From contig JAVVGL010000014.1 in assembly GCA_032249135.1 (NCBI GenBank), positions 1 through 57,280 on the forward strand: a DNA stretch of 57,280 bases, written 5' to 3'. Source of the DNA: Candidatus Calescibacterium sp. GTDB taxonomy: Bacteria; Calescibacteriota; Calescibacteriia; Calescibacteriales; Calescibacteriaceae. The notes beneath the pieces are model-generated. The model was not told the DNA's origin, did no database searches, and saw only the letters and a list, made by a program, of their open reading frames with translations. A program made the translations under genes and the position numbers. Below, piece after piece: positions 10,195 through 57,280 of this stretch. Position 1 is the stretch's first letter; every line of letters starts with the position of its first letter.

Positions 10195-10724
10195 AAATAA
10201 AAAACCCACAAGAAAAAATAGAAAGCACAGCAGAAATAGAAATCAAAGACTTATCTGAATTTGGAATAACAGATAGGTTCTTTGATGAGATTACAAAAGT
10301 GTATATGAAGGCATACGAAGGTATGGAGGAATACGGGGAACCGACGGAAAAGCATGCAAGAAAGTATATAAGGTGGCTGATAAATCACTCAGATTTTTTC
10401 AAGATACTTTACGACAAAAAAACAGGTATAATAGGATTCATAGCTTGTAGCTCTGAATGGTGGTGGAACGGAAAAACAGGAGAAATTCATGAGATATGTA
10501 TAACTCCAGAATTTCAAAAAATGGGATTAGGAAAATTTCTTATAATGCAGGCTATTGAATATTTTAAAATCAAAGGTGTTAATAAGGTAGGATTATGGGT
10601 TGGAGCAAATAATGAAAAAGCCATAAGATTTTATAAATCTTTAGGTTTTCATTTCACAGGAGAAAGCTTTCCAAGATGGATGAGGATGGAAAAAGAAATA
10701 AGTGGTGCGCCTGGCGGGACTTGA
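10170..10724 (+). CDS. GNAT family N-acetyltransferase
   Basis: motif A PEFQKMGLGK, motif B NEKAIRFYKSLGF. Confidence 0.9.
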   Translation: MGTIFDEIKIKNPQEKIESTAEIEIKDLSEFGITDRFFDEITKVYMKAYEGMEEYGEPTEKHARKYIRWLINHSDFFKILYDKKTGIIGFIACSSEWWWNGKTGEIHEICITPEFQKMGLGKFLIMQAIEYFKIKGVNKVGLWVGANNEKAIRFYKSLGFHFTGESFPRWMRMEKEISGAPGGT

Positions 10725-10779
10725 ACCCGCAACCTTTGGATTCGAAGTCCAACGCTCTATCCTTTTGAGCTACAGGCGC
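10703..10779 (-). tRNA. tRNA-Arg(TCG)
   Basis: reverse complement GCGCCTG..TAGCTCAAAAGGATAGAGC..TTGGA-CT-TCG-AA-TCCAA..GGTTCAAGTCC..CAGGCGC-ACCA; encoded CCA. Confidence 0.96.
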
Positions 10780-51871: not shown

Positions 51872-51964
51872 GGAGAGGTGGCCGAGAGGTCTAAGGCAAC
51901 AGCCTGCTAAGCTGTGGCGGGTTTAAAGCCCGCCTCGCGGGTTCGAATCCCGCCCTCTCCGCCA
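51872..51964 (+). tRNA. tRNA-Ser(GCT)
   Basis: GGAGAGG acceptor, ACAGC-CT-GCT-AA-GCTGT, long variable arm, GGTTCGAATCC, GCCA end. Confidence 0.96.
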
Positions 51965-54717: not shown

Positions 54718-57015
54718 TTAGATTACCTTTCCGAGTCCTATTATTTTTCCTTCTACAAGGCTCTTTCCCATTGCTTGACGAGAGAGAACAGGAATTTTAT
54801 CTCCTCTTATGTATTTTACTCCAATTTTTCCATCTTTCTCGTAGGTTATACAAACTTCATCTTCCTCATTTATGAATATTGCATCTTTTACTTTACCTGC
54901 CTTTTCAGTTGGTGTGAGCATAATTCCCATACCACCTTTATTTTGAATTTTGAGCTCAGAAGCTCTCACAGCTTTTATAAGCTCTTCTGTTGCAACAACA
55001 ATAAGATTATCTTCTTTTCCTTTCGCAAGGACACATAAAGCAGAATCATCTTGTGCAAGTTCTATTGCTTTTGATACTCTTGCCGTAATATCGTTTTCTT
55101 CAACCCCTAAAATCATTCCTTTTTCTGTTACGAAGAAAATTTTATCGCCTTCGGAGCATTCTACAGCGTCTCTGAGCTCATCCCCCTCTGATAGTTCAAA
55201 AACTACATCACCTCTTGCTGTCATATCGTACACCTCTTTGAGTCTAAACTTTTTAGCAAAACCTTTCTTTGTGAGAAGTATGAGGAACTTCTGTTCATCA
55301 GCTGGACCGACATATATTACTTCTTCATCTTTTGAGAGCCTAACAAGAGCTTTTGCAGGCGTTCCTCTTTCTGACCAACCTTTCAATTTTGATATTTTCG
55401 CCCTATAAACTTTTCCAAGATTGCTGACTACTGTAAGGTCTTCTGATGCAAAAAATGAGCTCTTTACGGGCAACCTTCTTATTTTTTCTGTTTTTGCAAA
55501 AACATTAACATAAAAGTCGTGAGTAATTACAACTTTTACCTCCTCACTTATAAACTCTTCTTTTATCGGAGGTTCTGTTCTTATTTCGGTTCTTCGCGGA
55601 TCACCGTACTTTTGTTTTATTTCCTCAATCTCTTCCTTTATTACTTTTTTAAGCTCATTCTCATCGCTCAAAATTAGTTTGAGCTTTTCAACAAGATTCT
55701 TTGTCTCTTCGTACTGTTTCATTATGGTTTCTCTTTCAAGCCTGGTAAGTCTTCCGAGCCTCATATCAAGTATAGCTTGGGCTTGTATGTCGGAGAACTT
55801 AAATTTCTTCGTCAAAGTTTCTTTTGCAACTTTTTCGCTCTCGCTCTCCCTTATCGTCTTTATTATATCATCAAGAATACTTATGGCTTTGAGATAACCC
55901 TCAAGGATATGAAGCTGATTTTGAGCTTTTTCAAGTCTGAACTTTGTTCTTTTGAGAACAACTTCTTTCCTCATTTCAATAAAGCTTGAAAGAAGATACA
56001 TAAGGTTTGCCTGAATTGGTTGGATCCCTTGAATTACAAGCATATTAACGAGAAAAGAGTCTTTGAGACCAGCTTTTTCGTAAAGTTGAGCAATTATTGG
56101 TTCAATTTCATACTCTGGTTTGACATCAATTACTATTCTTATACCTGATCTGTCTGATTCATCTGCAACTCTTATTATTCCATCTATTATTTTTTCACTT
56201 GCAAGCTTTGCAATTTTCTCCACTATTTTTGCCTTGTTTTGTTGGTAAGGAATTTCATAAAAAATTATTGATTTTGATTTTTGCCCTTTCTCAACTTTAT
56301 ATCTTGCATAAATTGATATTTGTCCTCTGCCCTCTTTATATACCTCTTTGAGGTCTCCAACAACTATTCCCCCTGTCGGAAAATCGGGACCCTTTATTAT
56401 TTTCAAAATTTCATCCAAGGTAGCTGAAGGTTTATCAATAAGATACAAAATTGCGTCGCAAACTTCTTTGAGGTTATGAGGTGGAATAGAAGTGCTCATA
56501 CCAACTGCTATACCTGATGTTCCATTAACAAGAATGTTCGGGAATCTTGCTGGCAAAAATTTTGGCTCAGTCAAAGATTCATCATAGTTTGGAACAAATT
56601 CCACTGTATTTTCGTGAATATCTTTCAGTAGCTCCTCTGCAAGTGGCGTAAGGCGAGCTTCCGTATATCTCATCGCAGCCGGTTCATCTCCATCTATTGA
56701 GCCGAAATTCCCTTGACCGTCTACCAGTGGATACCTCATAACGAAGTCTTGAGCCATTCTCACAAGTGCATCATAAACTGGCTTATCTCCGTGAGGATGG
56801 TATTTCCCTATACAGCTTCCGACTATTTTTGCGCTCTTTTTAAATTGCGATTTTGAGGTTATACCTTCTTCCCACATCGTCCATATTATTCTTCTTTGAA
56901 CTGGTTTTAGTCCATCTTGAATATCTGGAATTGCTCTGCCTATTATAACGCTCATTGAATAGCTGAGGTAAGAAGACCTGAGCTCCTTTTCTATATCTAC
57001 TTGAACCTGTCTCAT
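54718..57015 (-). CDS. type IIA topoisomerase subunit A (GyrA/ParC)
   Basis: DGLKPVQRR, YHPHGD, GNFGS, AAMRYTE (catalytic Tyr), GPDFPTGG; degenerate pinwheel CTD. Confidence 0.95.
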   Translation of the reverse strand: MRQVQVDIEKELRSSYLSYSMSVIIGRAIPDIQDGLKPVQRRIIWTMWEEGITSKSQFKKSAKIVGSCIGKYHPHGDKPVYDALVRMAQDFVMRYPLVDGQGNFGSIDGDEPAAMRYTEARLTPLAEELLKDIHENTVEFVPNYDESLTEPKFLPARFPNILVNGTSGIAVGMSTSIPPHNLKEVCDAILYLIDKPSATLDEILKIIKGPDFPTGGIVVGDLKEVYKEGRGQISIYARYKVEKGQKSKSIIFYEIPYQQNKAKIVEKIAKLASEKIIDGIIRVADESDRSGIRIVIDVKPEYEIEPIIAQLYEKAGLKDSFLVNMLVIQGIQPIQANLMYLLSSFIEMRKEVVLKRTKFRLEKAQNQLHILEGYLKAISILDDIIKTIRESESEKVAKETLTKKFKFSDIQAQAILDMRLGRLTRLERETIMKQYEETKNLVEKLKLILSDENELKKVIKEEIEEIKQKYGDPRRTEIRTEPPIKEEFISEEVKVVITHDFYVNVFAKTEKIRRLPVKSSFFASEDLTVVSNLGKVYRAKISKLKGWSERGTPAKALVRLSKDEEVIYVGPADEQKFLILLTKKGFAKKFRLKEVYDMTARGDVVFELSEGDELRDAVECSEGDKIFFVTEKGMILGVEENDITARVSKAIELAQDDSALCVLAKGKEDNLIVVATEELIKAVRASELKIQNKGGMGIMLTPTEKAGKVKDAIFINEEDEVCITYEKDGKIGVKYIRGDKIPVLSRQAMGKSLVEGKIIGLGKVI

Positions 57016-57093
57016 AGAACTGATTTTAAAACAAATGAATAAATTTTGAAAAAAAATCTGAATTGTTAATTAATAGGAAATTACCAAATTTTA

Positions 57094-57119
57094 GTTTGCC
57101 ATAAAGCTTTGTCGCAAAC
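57094..57119. promoter_or_regulatory. 26-bp imperfect palindrome (operator or RNA hairpin)
   Basis: GTTTGCCATAAAG|CTTTGTCGCAAAC, 11/13 positions symmetric. Confidence 0.45.
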
Positions 57120-57126
57120 ATTTCAG

Positions 57127-57271
57127 GGCGGCCCTGCAAAGCCATCAGGACCTAACCTGCTCGCTACCCCCTCCCACTTCCCTTGCACCATCACAGGGCG
57201 CAAAGGAGAGAAGTCCCTTACACAGAACCTCCCAAGGAGAGGTATAGCGAAGGCTACCCTCAGAACTCGCC
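57127..57271 (-). ncRNA. unassigned structured RNA, long closing stem plus two hairpins (three-way junction)
   Basis: 59% GC (86/145) island in AT-rich DNA; hand fold pairs most bases, with about 15 G-U pairs possible only on the minus strand. Confidence 0.75.
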
Positions 57272-57280
57272 AGAGTTTTT

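What the first reader, a model, noticed from the sequence alone, without database searches (positions are those of the whole stretch)
57127..57271. Unassigned 145-nt Y-shaped structured RNA upstream of the topoisomerase gene
Seen on the minus strand by hand fold. The closing rod is GGCG/CGCC, GUUCUG/CAGGGC and AGGGU/GCUUU, then an 11-nt one-sided bulge AGGUCCUGAUG, then AGCCU/AGGUU, UCGCUAU/GUAGCGA and CCUCUCCU/GGGAGGGG. It opens into two hairpins: GGGAGGUUCU-GUGUAA-GGGACUUCUC (10 bp) and UCCUUUGCGCC-CUGUGAU-GGUGCAAGGGA (11 bp). About 15 G-U pairs fix the strand, and it is 59% GC in AT-rich DNA, like the tRNAs. I could not match it to tRNA, tmRNA, RNase P, SRP (no GNRA helix-8 motif), canonical 6S (no two-sided central bubble) or common riboswitches. 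The downstream gene seems to have its own promoter, favouring an independent RNA over a leader. Best candidate here for an undescribed element; its upstream context lies outside the window.
Basis: partly seen in the sequence, partly recalled or inferred. Interest (0 to 1): 0.8.

Follow-up and report, generated by a model that had tools for sequence, protein, structure and literature searches.

The report
Guide-RNA scaffold of a TnpB transposon
The folded 145-base stretch is the cut-off right end of a multi-copy mobile element, where the tail of a TnpB (Cas12-like) nuclease gene doubles as that nuclease's probable guide-RNA scaffold, so it is a real structured RNA of a known kind.

Summary
The fold is real (z = -4.55; no Rfam family). 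It is neither a stand-alone RNA nor a gyrA leader. The window is a whole contig that ends inside a ~1.7-kb repeat with at least four copies in this genome. The repeat encodes a 527-aa TnpB/Cas12f-like nuclease. Its last ~50 codons are the structured stretch, and its stop codon lies two bases past the fold.

A covariance model finds the structure in 74 of 80 related loci from other thermophiles. 46 of 52 pairs show compensatory changes. The two hairpins and inner stems are confirmed.

The element has terminal inverted repeats and 9-10-bp target duplications. It shares its ends with a small IS5-like DDE insertion sequence. A TTTAT motif lies exactly 10 nt before the left end in 54 metagenomic flanks, where a TnpB target-adjacent motif would sit.

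Best reading: an omega/reRNA scaffold (about 0.8). It is a new member of a known kind. Processing and guide function remain untested.

The parts
57105..57280 (-). Right-end portion (176 nt) of a ~1.7-kb TnpB-bearing insertion element. It is cut off by the contig end at 57280; the rest of this copy lies on contig C21 of the same assembly.
   Evidence: The window is the whole of contig C14. The end of C21 overlaps the window end by 54 identical bases. Metagenome contig L178 carries the element with C21's left flank and the window's right flank. Other copies lie in C4, C5, C41, C42 and C51.
57123..57280 (-). 3' end of the TnpB-family ORF (last ~51 codons plus the TGA stop at 57125-57123). It encodes the conserved C-terminal motif W..L.VA..PLLG...RD.SPL.
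   Evidence: tblastn match to residues 477-527 of the C4 copy at 94% identity. Full ORF of 527 aa in L002:1503-3086(-). W479, R497, D498, S500 and L502 are invariant in 14 relatives.
57153..57256 (-). Three-way junction: stems AGCCU/AGGUU, UCGCUAU/GUAGCGA and CCUCUCCU/GGGAGGGG, opening into two hairpins.
   Evidence: Helices 2-5 are paired in 83-97% of cells, with changes on both sides in most pairs. An independent MAFFT/RNAalifold run recovers them.
57208..57233 (-). Hairpin 1 (GGGAGGUUCU / GGGACUUCUC).
   Evidence: Helices 6-7: 9 of 10 pairs change on both sides. One-sided changes that keep the pairs are visible among the genome's own copies.
57179..57207 (-). Hairpin 2 (UCCUUUGCGCC / GGUGCAAGGGA).
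   Evidence: Helix 8: 9 of 11 pairs change on both sides and 80.6% of cells are paired. The tip is variable, and only part of the hairpin is recovered.
57130..57152 (-). 3' hairpin GGUCCUG-AUGGCUUUG-CAGGGCC.
   Evidence: Helix 9: 98.5% paired and 7 of 7 pairs changed on both sides. Recovered. Kept in the MITE-like copy in C37 and in the relic in C1.
57137..57142 (-). Loop bases GCUUUG, the proposed 5' strand of a pseudoknot.
   Evidence: Complementary to CAAAGC at 57106-57111. The partner sequences change together in at least six sequence classes of relatives.
57105..57117 (-). Right terminal inverted repeat TTGCGACAAAGCT. Its CAAAGC (57106-57111) is the proposed 3' strand of the pseudoknot.
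   Evidence: It is the inverse of the left end, TGCYTTGTCGCAA. The same terminus is found on the IS5-like element C24:2292-3340. T follows AAAGC in 36 of 38 distinct right flanks, so it belongs to the element.
57096..57104 (-). Target-site duplication TTATGGCAA. It is repeated before the left end on C21.
   Evidence: The same duplication is seen in L178.
57085..57104 (-). Inferred guide segment: the first ~20 nt after the right end. Its length is assumed from other TnpB systems.
   Evidence: Inference only. The copies diverge from here on. No RNA ends could be read, because only contigs were available.

Best explanation
The 145-nt structure is the scaffold of the guide RNA (omega RNA, also called reRNA) of a TnpB-family RNA-guided nuclease.

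Location. It sits at the right end of a ~1.7-kb non-autonomous insertion element that has terminal inverted repeats. The same bases also encode the last ~50 residues of the nuclease.

Proposed mechanism. The tnpB transcript runs through the right end into the flanking DNA. The structured 3' part is kept as an RNA whose scaffold is a three-way junction followed by a 3' hairpin. The loop of that hairpin pairs with the last bases of the element, directly before the guide. The next ~16-20 nt form the guide: the 9-10-bp target duplication plus the flank. The TnpB-RNA complex would then cut the element-free version of the site, which reads 5'-TTTAT-N-(duplicated 9 bp)-flank. This would favour retention or homing of the element.

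Movement. The element itself is probably moved in trans by an IS5-like DDE transposase, whose own insertion sequence has the same ends.

Shown: the repeat, the ORF, the TnpB fold, the conserved structure, the shared ends, the duplications and the TTTAT motif. Inferred: RNA processing, the guide function, DNA cleavage and mobilisation in trans.
For: 1. Position and strand. The structure overlaps the 3' end of a 527-aa ORF and ends 22 nt before the element's right end.

2. The protein is TnpB/Cas12f-like. TIGR01766 scores 49.2 bits against a cut-off of 32. A profile search finds Cas12f, Cas12j and IS605-OrfB chains. The AlphaFold model (pLDDT 80.6) matches AsCas12f at E = 9.5e-11, ISFba1 TnpB-reRNA at 9e-7 and ISDra2 TnpB-reRNA at 4.8e-6. 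E292 and D361 are invariant, and the D of GIDxN is kept in all 11 rows that cover it.

3. The RNA travels with the gene. Model R1 hits 74 of 80 related loci (75 hits). In 61 of the 75 hits the long ORF reads through the whole hit.

4. Covariation. 89.0% of cells are paired, against 43-63% when the partners are slid. 46 of 52 pairs change on both sides. The score is 0.465, against 0.07-0.15 slid, and 0 of 500 shuffles reach it. An alignment not fitted to the model gives the same helices, with 19 of 37 pairs compensated. Many G-U pairs fix the strand.

5. Pseudoknot. The loop can pair with the terminus through at least 6 Watson-Crick pairs in 43 of 74 cases, against about 10% for shuffled or reversed tails. 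The partner sequences differ between lineages. TnpB reRNAs are reported to have three stems and such a pseudoknot (PMC10711439, passages read).

6. Candidate TAM. At -15..-11 from the left end, 54 distinct flanks read T42 T52 T51 A41 T41, and no other position exceeds 0.92 bits. There is no mirrored motif on the right side. A different motif, TGKCAA, sits at the same offset in 18 Thermocrinis/Hydrogenobacter-type flanks.

7. RNA libraries. Contigs from four hot-spring RNA libraries cover the element.

8. Precedent. DDE-associated TnpBs with inverted terminal repeats, and solo TnpBs that share ends with transposase-bearing elements, are in print (PMC10691335, section 9 read).
Against: No transcript ends, no processing and no binding were seen. 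The RNA runs are kept as contigs only; the tool states that their depth cannot rank parts, and the element is multi-copy.

The protein misses NCBI's guided_TnpB cut-off (52 bits against 100). It has no zinc finger between NPAFTS and DKD.

The 3' partner of the pseudoknot is also the terminal inverted repeat. The covariation could therefore reflect a third copy of a transposase-binding motif rather than RNA pairing.

The TTTAT motif could be the transposase's own target preference. Too few DDE-only copies were found to tell. About 10 of the 54 flanks are the same site with small differences.

Target duplications are seen in only 12 of 31 copies and 12 of 26 copies.

The whole scaffold is also coding. 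The third codon position is somewhat more variable than the other two (entropy 1.10 against 0.90 and 0.83), so part of the sequence conservation comes from the protein.

In 14 of 75 hits, mostly the weak Firmicute ones, the ORF stops inside the structure or is broken there.
Confidence: 0.8

Rival explanations
1. The structure is a cis-acting part of the transposon end or of the tnpB mRNA, not a guide RNA. It could serve as a transposase-binding or synapsis element, or as a 3' stabiliser or translation control.
For: The 3' hairpin and the terminus are exactly what the MITE-like copy in C37 and the relic in C1 retain. The hairpin loop repeats the terminal motif of the inverted repeat. The element moves by a DDE-type route with duplications, a route that is rarely linked to TnpB (review PMC13565253, passages read).
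Against: A DDE transposase needs double-stranded ends, not a 100-nt three-way junction rich in G-U pairs, which would be mismatches on the other strand. The MITE lacks the three-way junction and yet has both ends, so the junction is not needed in cis for transposition. The junction occurs wherever the TnpB gene occurs.
Confidence: 0.1
2. The conservation is purely protein-coding. The fold is an accident of a GC-rich coding segment.
For: The ORF reads through the fold in 61 of 75 hits. The C-terminal motif is conserved, with five invariant residues, and is modelled as helices with pLDDT of about 70-89. There is a mild three-base periodicity.
Against: 46 of 52 pairs change on both sides while staying paired, and sliding the partners by one column drops pairing from 89% to 57-63%. 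The fold is 4.5 sd better than shuffles. An alignment not fitted to the model reproduces it.
Confidence: 0.04
3. One reading: an independent, undescribed small RNA gene upstream of gyrA, for example a Y-RNA-like or retron-like RNA with its own partner gene beyond the edge.
For: No Rfam family matches. The fold is stable.
Against: It is a repeat with several copies, each at the end of the same ORF. Related genomes of the genus have the gyrA upstream region, but the alignments do not reach the first ~40 nt next to the element, and the left flank is not found beside it. The gene beyond the edge is tnpB itself.
Confidence: 0.02

Closest known systems
TnpB omega RNA / reRNA of IS200/IS605 elements (ISDra2, ISFba1)
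   Same: It is encoded on the sense strand at the 3' end of tnpB and overlaps the ORF end. It is a multi-stem scaffold that ends at the transposon's right boundary, with a pseudoknot next to the guide and a T-rich 5-nt motif 5' of the target. The protein fold matches 8exa, 8h1j and 8iaz.
   Different: This element has terminal inverted repeats and 9-10-bp duplications instead of subterminal hairpins. No Y1 TnpA was found in the genome, which is 87% complete. The candidate TAM lies 10 nt from the left end rather than abutting it, so the guide would begin with the duplicated bases. The whole scaffold, not just its start, is translated. The protein has no zinc finger and carries a ~165-residue C-terminal extension.
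DDE-transposase-associated TnpB branches (Altae-Tran et al. 2023, PNAS, PMC10691335; section 9 read)
   Same: Inverted terminal repeats; the tnpB 3' end within 250 bp of the transposon end; solo TnpBs whose ends match those of transposase-bearing elements, which suggests mobilisation in trans; loss of the zinc finger in some branches; TnpB abundant in Aquificae.
   Different: The sections I read give no RNA structure, no TAM offset and no IS5-like partner for such a branch.
Fanzor reRNAs in eukaryotic TIR/TSD transposons (Yoon et al. 2023, NAR, PMC10711439; passages read)
   Same: A TnpB homologue rides in a cut-and-paste DNA transposon, and the terminal inverted repeat forms part of the RNA scaffold.
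   Different: This case is prokaryotic. The duplication is long and variable, so it must be read as guide rather than scaffold. A pseudoknot is proposed here, whereas it is reported absent in Fanzor1 reRNAs.
Cas12f sgRNA/tracrRNA complexes
   Same: These are the best structural matches of the protein (AsCas12f, E = 9.5e-11). Their PAMs are T-rich (recalled).
   Different: No CRISPR array or cas genes were seen next to the copies examined (ORF lists). The guide comes from the transposon flank.
IS5-family insertion sequences with 9-bp duplications (IS903 group; recalled from memory)
   Same: The ends begin GCTTTGT, the duplications are 9-10 bp, and the partner element encodes a DDE_Tnp_1 / IS5-type transposase.
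   Different: The element in the window carries no transposase of its own, only tnpB. The IS903 resemblance was not tested against a reference sequence.

Membership tests
TnpB/Cas12 superfamily (the protein whose gene contains the structure) | RuvC-like nuclease fold with a D-E-D triad | tested here: met
   Foldseek gives probability 1.0 to Cas12f, TnpB, Cas12k and Fanzor2 chains. E292 and D361 are invariant, and the D of GIDxN is present in all 11 rows that cover it. TIGR01766 scores 49.2 bits against a cut-off of 32.
TnpB/Cas12 superfamily (the protein whose gene contains the structure) | Score over NCBIfam NF040570 (guided_TnpB) cut-off | tested here: not met
   52 bits against a cut-off of 100. 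This is a divergent branch.
TnpB/Cas12 superfamily (the protein whose gene contains the structure) | C4 zinc finger between RuvC-II and RuvC-III | tested here: not met
   Only 16 residues (VIGMMKYCPQYFI...) lie between NPAFTS and DKD, with no CxxC pairs. The Pfam TNB domain scores 18.3 bits against 26.3. The literature says the finger is lost in some large branches (PMC10691335).
omega RNA / reRNA of TnpB | Encoded at the 3' end of tnpB, on the same strand, abutting the right transposon end | tested here: met
   The structure is found in 74 of 80 related loci, and the ORF reads through it in 61 of 75 hits.
omega RNA / reRNA of TnpB | Conserved multi-stem secondary structure supported by covariation | tested here: met
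omega RNA / reRNA of TnpB | Pseudoknot that ties the scaffold interior to the bases next to the guide | tested here: inconclusive
   At least 6 Watson-Crick pairs in 43 of 74 cases, against about 10% in controls, with lineage-specific partner sequences. The 3' strand is also the terminal inverted repeat, so a DNA-level reading is not excluded.
omega RNA / reRNA of TnpB | Variable guide taken from the flank, with a fixed TAM 5' of the matching target | tested here: inconclusive
   The flanks diverge right after the right end. TTTAT lies at -15..-11 in 54 flanks, and TGKCAA at the same offset in 18 flanks of another lineage. There is no mirror motif on the right. Cleavage was not tested.
omega RNA / reRNA of TnpB | A processed RNA species that binds TnpB and directs DNA cleavage | not testable with these tools
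   Only contigs of RNA libraries were available. They show presence, not ends, strand or level.
Any Rfam 15 family (6S, SRP, tmRNA, RNase P, riboswitches, transposon-linked motifs) | Covariance-model score at or near the gathering threshold | tested here: not met
   Only two tRNAs reach gathering score in the window. The best hit on the region is RAGATH-5 on the opposite strand, at 17.6 bits against 50. On the complete C4 copy, all 5 hits have E >= 1.2.
IS200/IS605 family | No terminal inverted repeats and no target duplication; a Y1 HUH TnpA in cis or in trans | tested here: not met
   Inverted repeats of 12-17 bp or more. Duplications of 8-12 bp in 12 of 31 and 12 of 26 copies. PF01797 has 0 matches in the genome, which is 87% complete.
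Non-autonomous IS5-like (DDE) element | Ends shared with a DDE-transposase-bearing insertion sequence in the same genome, and the same duplication length | tested here: met
   Own genome: C24:2292-3340 has the same terminal 13-16 nt, a 10-bp duplication and a DDE_Tnp_1 ORF (31.4 bits against a cut-off of 23; IS5 model 86.5 bits against 140). Thermocrinis genome G007: a different inverted repeat occurs 67 times against 2 for the control. It bounds both the TnpB elements and a 934-bp insertion sequence with DDE_Tnp_1 (48 bits) and a 10-bp duplication.

The most novel reading that the evidence does not exclude
The TnpB protein, through its TAM-reading surface and with or without its RNA, helps choose where the DDE transposase inserts the element. 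This would be a minimal, CRISPR-free counterpart of Cas12k-guided transposition.

The hint is that the TAM-like motif is strictly one-sided and sits at a fixed 10-nt distance from the left end in two lineages with different motifs (TTTAT and TGKCAA). A symmetric DDE transposase acting alone would not be expected to produce this.

A milder form of the same reading: this is an RNA-guided homing module that has been stably adopted by cut-and-paste IS5-like elements. Its guide starts inside the target duplication, and its entire scaffold is also translated into a conserved domain of its own nuclease.
Probability: 0.12. Interest if true: 0.8.

Novelty: new member of a known kind. Interest (0 to 1): 0.4.

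Why it matters
It removes a candidate 'new RNA class' and replaces it with a concrete, testable annotation. The element carries a compact 527-aa, zinc-finger-less TnpB nuclease from hot-spring bacteria. Three things are now predicted for it: a guide-RNA scaffold, a TAM (TTTAT) and a guide start.

Such thermophilic, small RNA-guided nucleases are of practical interest as genome-editing chassis.

Biologically, the locus is a clear prokaryotic case of a TnpB module riding on a DDE-type element with terminal inverted repeats and target duplications. That association is reported as rare, and its logic is debated: why keep a homing nuclease in a cut-and-paste element? (review PMC13565253).

It also shows nearly complete overlap of a structured RNA with a conserved protein domain.

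For annotation, the contig break, the apparently orphan 51-codon ORF fragment and the GC-rich island upstream of gyrA are all explained by one insertion.

Tried and rejected
- Rfam at gathering and at E <= 10, on the window end and on the complete C4 copy. Nothing usable.
- Earlier findings of this scan, by place and by sequence. Nothing.
- Search of the genome's order and phylum for relatives. Only 7 genomes are held, and only one has a full homologue.
- Y1 TnpA (PF01797) in the genome. Not found; the genome is 87% complete, so absence is not shown.
- An 'empty site' in three genomes of the same genus. The gyrA upstream region is present, but the left flank is not adjacent to it, so no pre-insertion allele was recovered.
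- Copies of the DDE-only insertion sequence in the 72 metagenome loci, to test whether it shares the TTTAT preference. None were present. The single copies in C24 and L107 do not show the motif clearly on either side (read by eye).
- A first, exact-seed search for inverted repeats missed most ends, including the C4 copy. It was replaced by pattern searches that allow mismatches.
- RNA libraries. The summed contig depth over 57120-57280 is 10^2-10^3 times that over gyrA in the four runs laid, with a step near the right end. I do not use this as a measure of expression, because the depth is per contig, is summed over copies and organisms, and DNA can be present in such libraries.
- Literature searches for this clade: TnpB with Thermocrinis gave 0 papers. 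TnpB with Sulfurihydrogenibium, Hydrogenobacter, Caldanaerobacter, Thermus thermophilus or Calescamantes listed nothing relevant among the 15 shown of 184.
- Complex prediction was not used, because it cannot take RNA as a partner.

Full report
**The observation.** The energy is -74.4 kcal/mol, against -56.1 +/- 4.0 for 200 dinucleotide-preserving shuffles (z = -4.55; none of the 200 folds as well). The stretch is 59.3% GC in a window of 34.2% GC, and 12 of its 55 pairs are G-U. Rfam 15 gives only two tRNAs in the whole window at gathering score. At E <= 10 the region gives one chance hit on the wrong strand: RAGATH-5, 17.6 bits against a gathering score of 50. A complete copy of the element gives five hits, all with E >= 1.2. 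The structure is therefore real, and it is not in Rfam.

**It is a repeat cut by the contig end.** The window is a whole contig (C14) of a 51-contig assembly. The last 176 bases recur in several places:
- C4, 96% identity over 158 nt;
- C42, 91%, at a contig start;
- C51, 90%;
- the last 54 bases of C21, 100% identity, a graph overlap with the window end;
- partial copies in C37 and C1.

With the complete C4 copy as query, the repeat is about 1.7 kb long. It also accounts for the ends of contigs C21, C5 and C41 (left halves) and of C51 and C42 (right halves). That makes at least four copies. A metagenome contig (L178) carries the element uninterrupted between C21's flank and the window's flank, so the window's copy continues on C21.

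**What the repeat encodes.** The one long ORF has 527 codons (L002:1503-3086, minus strand). It reads through the whole structured stretch, and its TGA stop (window 57125-57123) lies two bases past the fold.
- Family searches: TIGR01766 ('IS200/IS605 family accessory protein TnpB-related') scores 49.2 bits against a cut-off of 32. The guided_TnpB model scores 52 bits, below its cut-off of 100.
- Pfam adds DUF2192 (30.5 bits against 21) and a sub-threshold Cas12f1-like TNB match.
- A profile of 14 relatives finds Cas12f, Cas12j/Cas12X and 'IS605 OrfB' chains in the PDB.
- An AlphaFold model (pLDDT 80.6, pTM 0.62) matches AsCas12f at E = 9.5e-11, ISFba1 TnpB-reRNA at 9e-7 and ISDra2 TnpB-reRNA at 4.8e-6, as well as Cas12k and Fanzor2, all with probability 1.0.
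- The RuvC residues are kept.
- The zinc finger usual between RuvC-II and RuvC-III is absent. This is reported for some large TnpB branches (PMC10691335, passages read).
- Close homologues (87-93% identity, mostly 523-527 aa) are numerous in metagenomes and are named 'IS605 OrfB family transposase' by one source.
- The representative library holds 1623 relatives at E <= 0.001.

**The structure is conserved with the gene.** A scan of one genome per species found 470 relatives; the best 80 loci were kept. They come from Thermocrinis, Hydrogenobacter, Sulfurihydrogenibium, Thermus, Caldanaerobacter and others, and include a same-genus relative titled Candidatus Calescibacterium nevadense. A covariance model built from the four local copies and that relative hits 75 places in 74 of the 80 loci. 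Nearly all of the hits lie at the gene's 3' end on its strand.

On the resulting alignment:
- 89.0% of cells form standard pairs, against 43-63% when the partners are slid by 1-3 columns;
- 46 of 52 pairs change on both sides;
- the covariation score is 0.465, against 0.07-0.15 slid, and no shuffle of 500 reaches the observed values.

That alignment is fitted to the model, so I repeated the test with MAFFT and RNAalifold on 16 diverse members. The same helices came back, and 19 of 37 pairs were compensated.

The two hairpins and the three inner stems are supported. The outer rod is not: GUUCUG/CAGGGC is paired in 63% of cells with 2 of 7 pairs compensated, and AGGGU/GCUUU is paired in 46%. Instead, part of the 'bulge' pairs with CAGGGCC to form a 7-bp hairpin. 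That hairpin is paired in 98.5% of cells and is compensated at all seven pairs.

**Coding and structure overlap.**
- In 61 of 75 hits the long ORF runs through the entire structure, in one frame in nearly all of them.
- The encoded peptide is conserved: W479, R497, D498, S500 and L502 are invariant in 14 relatives. It is modelled as three short helices after a disordered linker.
- Third codon positions are somewhat more variable than the other two (entropy 1.10 against 0.90 and 0.83).
- The stretch is therefore under both protein and RNA-type constraint.

**Ends of the element.** The left end reads TGCYTTGTCGCAATCAT and the right end TTGCGACAAAGCT, a terminal inverted repeat. The window copy is flanked by the duplication TTATGGCAA.
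- Among 31 distinct full copies in metagenome loci, 12 have duplications of 8-11 bp.
- In the Thermocrinis/Hydrogenobacter-type relatives the inverted repeat is a different 17-mer. There, 12 of 26 distinct repeat-bounded copies have duplications of 9-12 bp, mostly 10.
- These features exclude IS200/IS605-type and IS607-type transposition (PMC13565253, passages read). No Y1 transposase was found in the genome, which is 87% complete.
- Both lineages hold a small insertion sequence with the same ends and the same duplication length that encodes a DDE transposase:
  - C24:2292-3340 in this genome: DDE_Tnp_1 at 31.4 bits against 23, IS5 model at 86.5 bits against 140, 10-bp duplication.
  - A 934-bp element in Thermocrinis genome G007: DDE_Tnp_1 at 48 bits, 10-bp duplication. 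In that genome the 17-mer occurs 67 times, against 2 for the control.
- MITE-like deletion derivatives exist in both lineages.
- The TnpB elements therefore look like non-autonomous members of an IS5-like family.
- This general situation is in print: DDE-associated TnpBs with inverted terminal repeats, and solo TnpBs whose ends match transposase-bearing elements (PMC10691335, section 9 read). A 2026 review calls the association rare (PMC13565253). I could not check whether this family is one of the six published DDE branches, because the supplements are closed.

**Why I read the structure as a guide-RNA scaffold.**
- Its place, strand and overlap with the ORF end are those of TnpB omega/reRNAs.
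- The loop of the 3' hairpin is complementary to the last bases of the element, and the two change together: GCUUUG with CAAAGC here, AGAGGUUG with CAACCUCU in the congener, GAGGCUG with CAGCCUC in Thermocrinis, CCUGGU with ACCAGG in Thermus, and others. At least 6 Watson-Crick pairs are found in 43 of 74 cases, against about 10% for shuffled or reversed tails.
- TnpB reRNAs are described as three-stem RNAs with such a pseudoknot next to the guide. In Fanzor elements the terminal repeat is part of the scaffold (PMC10711439, passages read).
- A caveat applies: the 3' strand of the pseudoknot is also the transposase's terminal repeat, so a DNA-level reason for the co-variation is not excluded.

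**A candidate target-adjacent motif.** In 54 distinct left flanks from 72 metagenome stretches (about 44 different sites), positions -15 to -11 read T42 T52 T51 A41 T41 of 54, at 0.9-1.8 bits. No other position exceeds 0.92 bits.
- The five left ends in this genome, including the MITE, show TTTAT or TTTAA at that offset (read by eye).
- The right flank has no mirrored motif. Its only strong position is +1 (T in 36 of 38), which belongs to the element.
- In 18 Thermocrinis/Hydrogenobacter-type flanks a different motif, TGKCAA, occupies -15 to -10.
- In the uninterrupted site, the motif would therefore lie directly 5' of the duplicated bases and the right flank. That is 5' of what a guide transcribed past the right end would match. 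This is the geometry of a TnpB TAM, offset from the left end only by the duplication.
- Whether the motif reflects TnpB, the transposase or both is open.

**Expression.** Twenty-four RNA runs, mostly labelled hot-spring metatranscriptomes, share words with the stretch. In the four runs laid, contigs cover the element, and two long contigs bridge the right end into gyrA. These runs are kept as contigs, so ends, strand and level cannot be read. I count this only as presence in RNA libraries.

**Verdict.** The finding is a real, conserved structure. It is the 3'-terminal module of a TnpB-family mobile element truncated by the contig edge, not an unassigned RNA gene. The best explanation is an omega/reRNA scaffold (0.8). 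The rivals are a cis-acting end or mRNA element (0.1), a coding-only accident (0.04) and an independent RNA gene (0.02). It is a new member of a known kind. The IS5-like carrier, the TAM offset by the duplication and the fully translated scaffold make it a useful and moderately interesting case.

Noticed in passing
G000:C24:2292-3340 (locus L101): A 1049-bp IS5-like insertion sequence with a 236-aa DDE_Tnp_1 ORF. The match starts at position 72 of the 289-position IS5 model, so the protein may be N-terminally short. It has a 10-bp duplication (AAAATGAATT) and the same terminal 13-16 nt as the TnpB element. Only one full copy was found in the assembly; fragments lie in C17, C34, C20, C1 and C40.
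   Followed up: partly
G000:C37:4133-4308: A MITE-like internal-deletion derivative (~180 bp) of the TnpB element. It keeps the left end and the last ~55 nt (3' hairpin plus terminus) but not the three-way junction. TTTAT lies 10 nt before its left end.
   Followed up: partly
G000:C1:203990-204029: A diverged relic of the right-end hairpin, with a perfect GGTCCTG/CAGGACC stem. It lies just downstream of a run of about 26 A's between two genes.
   Followed up: no
window 10706-10779 (-) and 51872-51961 (+): Two tRNA genes (77.2 and 60.8 bits). The second has a long variable arm. These are the only Rfam matches in the window.
   Followed up: no
window 57013-57104: The element sits about 90 nt upstream of the gyrA start codon (ATG at 57015-57013) and in the same orientation. 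Read-through from tnpB or the guide RNA could therefore enter gyrA. Two long contigs from RNA libraries bridge the junction.
   Followed up: no
TnpB protein residues 354-443 (L002:1503-3086:-): Pfam DUF2192 ('uncharacterized protein conserved in archaea') matches above its cut-off (30.5 bits against 21). This suggests that DUF2192 is a piece of TnpB-like proteins. The precomputed annotation also lists PF27229, which is not in the Pfam copy I could search.
   Followed up: no
G007 (Thermocrinis MAG, 1.3 Mb): The 17-nt terminal repeat occurs 67 times, which points to a very heavy load of this element family in a small genome: full TnpB copies, 184-318-bp MITEs, and interrupted copies of 1488 and 1885 bp.
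   Followed up: partly
L049 (Thermocrinis locus), both flanks of the element: The same ~25-nt motif (GGGTGTCCCATTTTTTTGTCAAATT) occurs in the left flank and again about 35 nt into the right flank. It is another repeat, or a larger duplication at the insertion site.
   Followed up: no
L075, L077, L084, L087-L093, L097 (Caldanaerobacter and other Firmicute loci): In these weakest model hits, the ORF ends inside the structure instead of reading through it. The gene-RNA overlap therefore differs between lineages.
   Followed up: no
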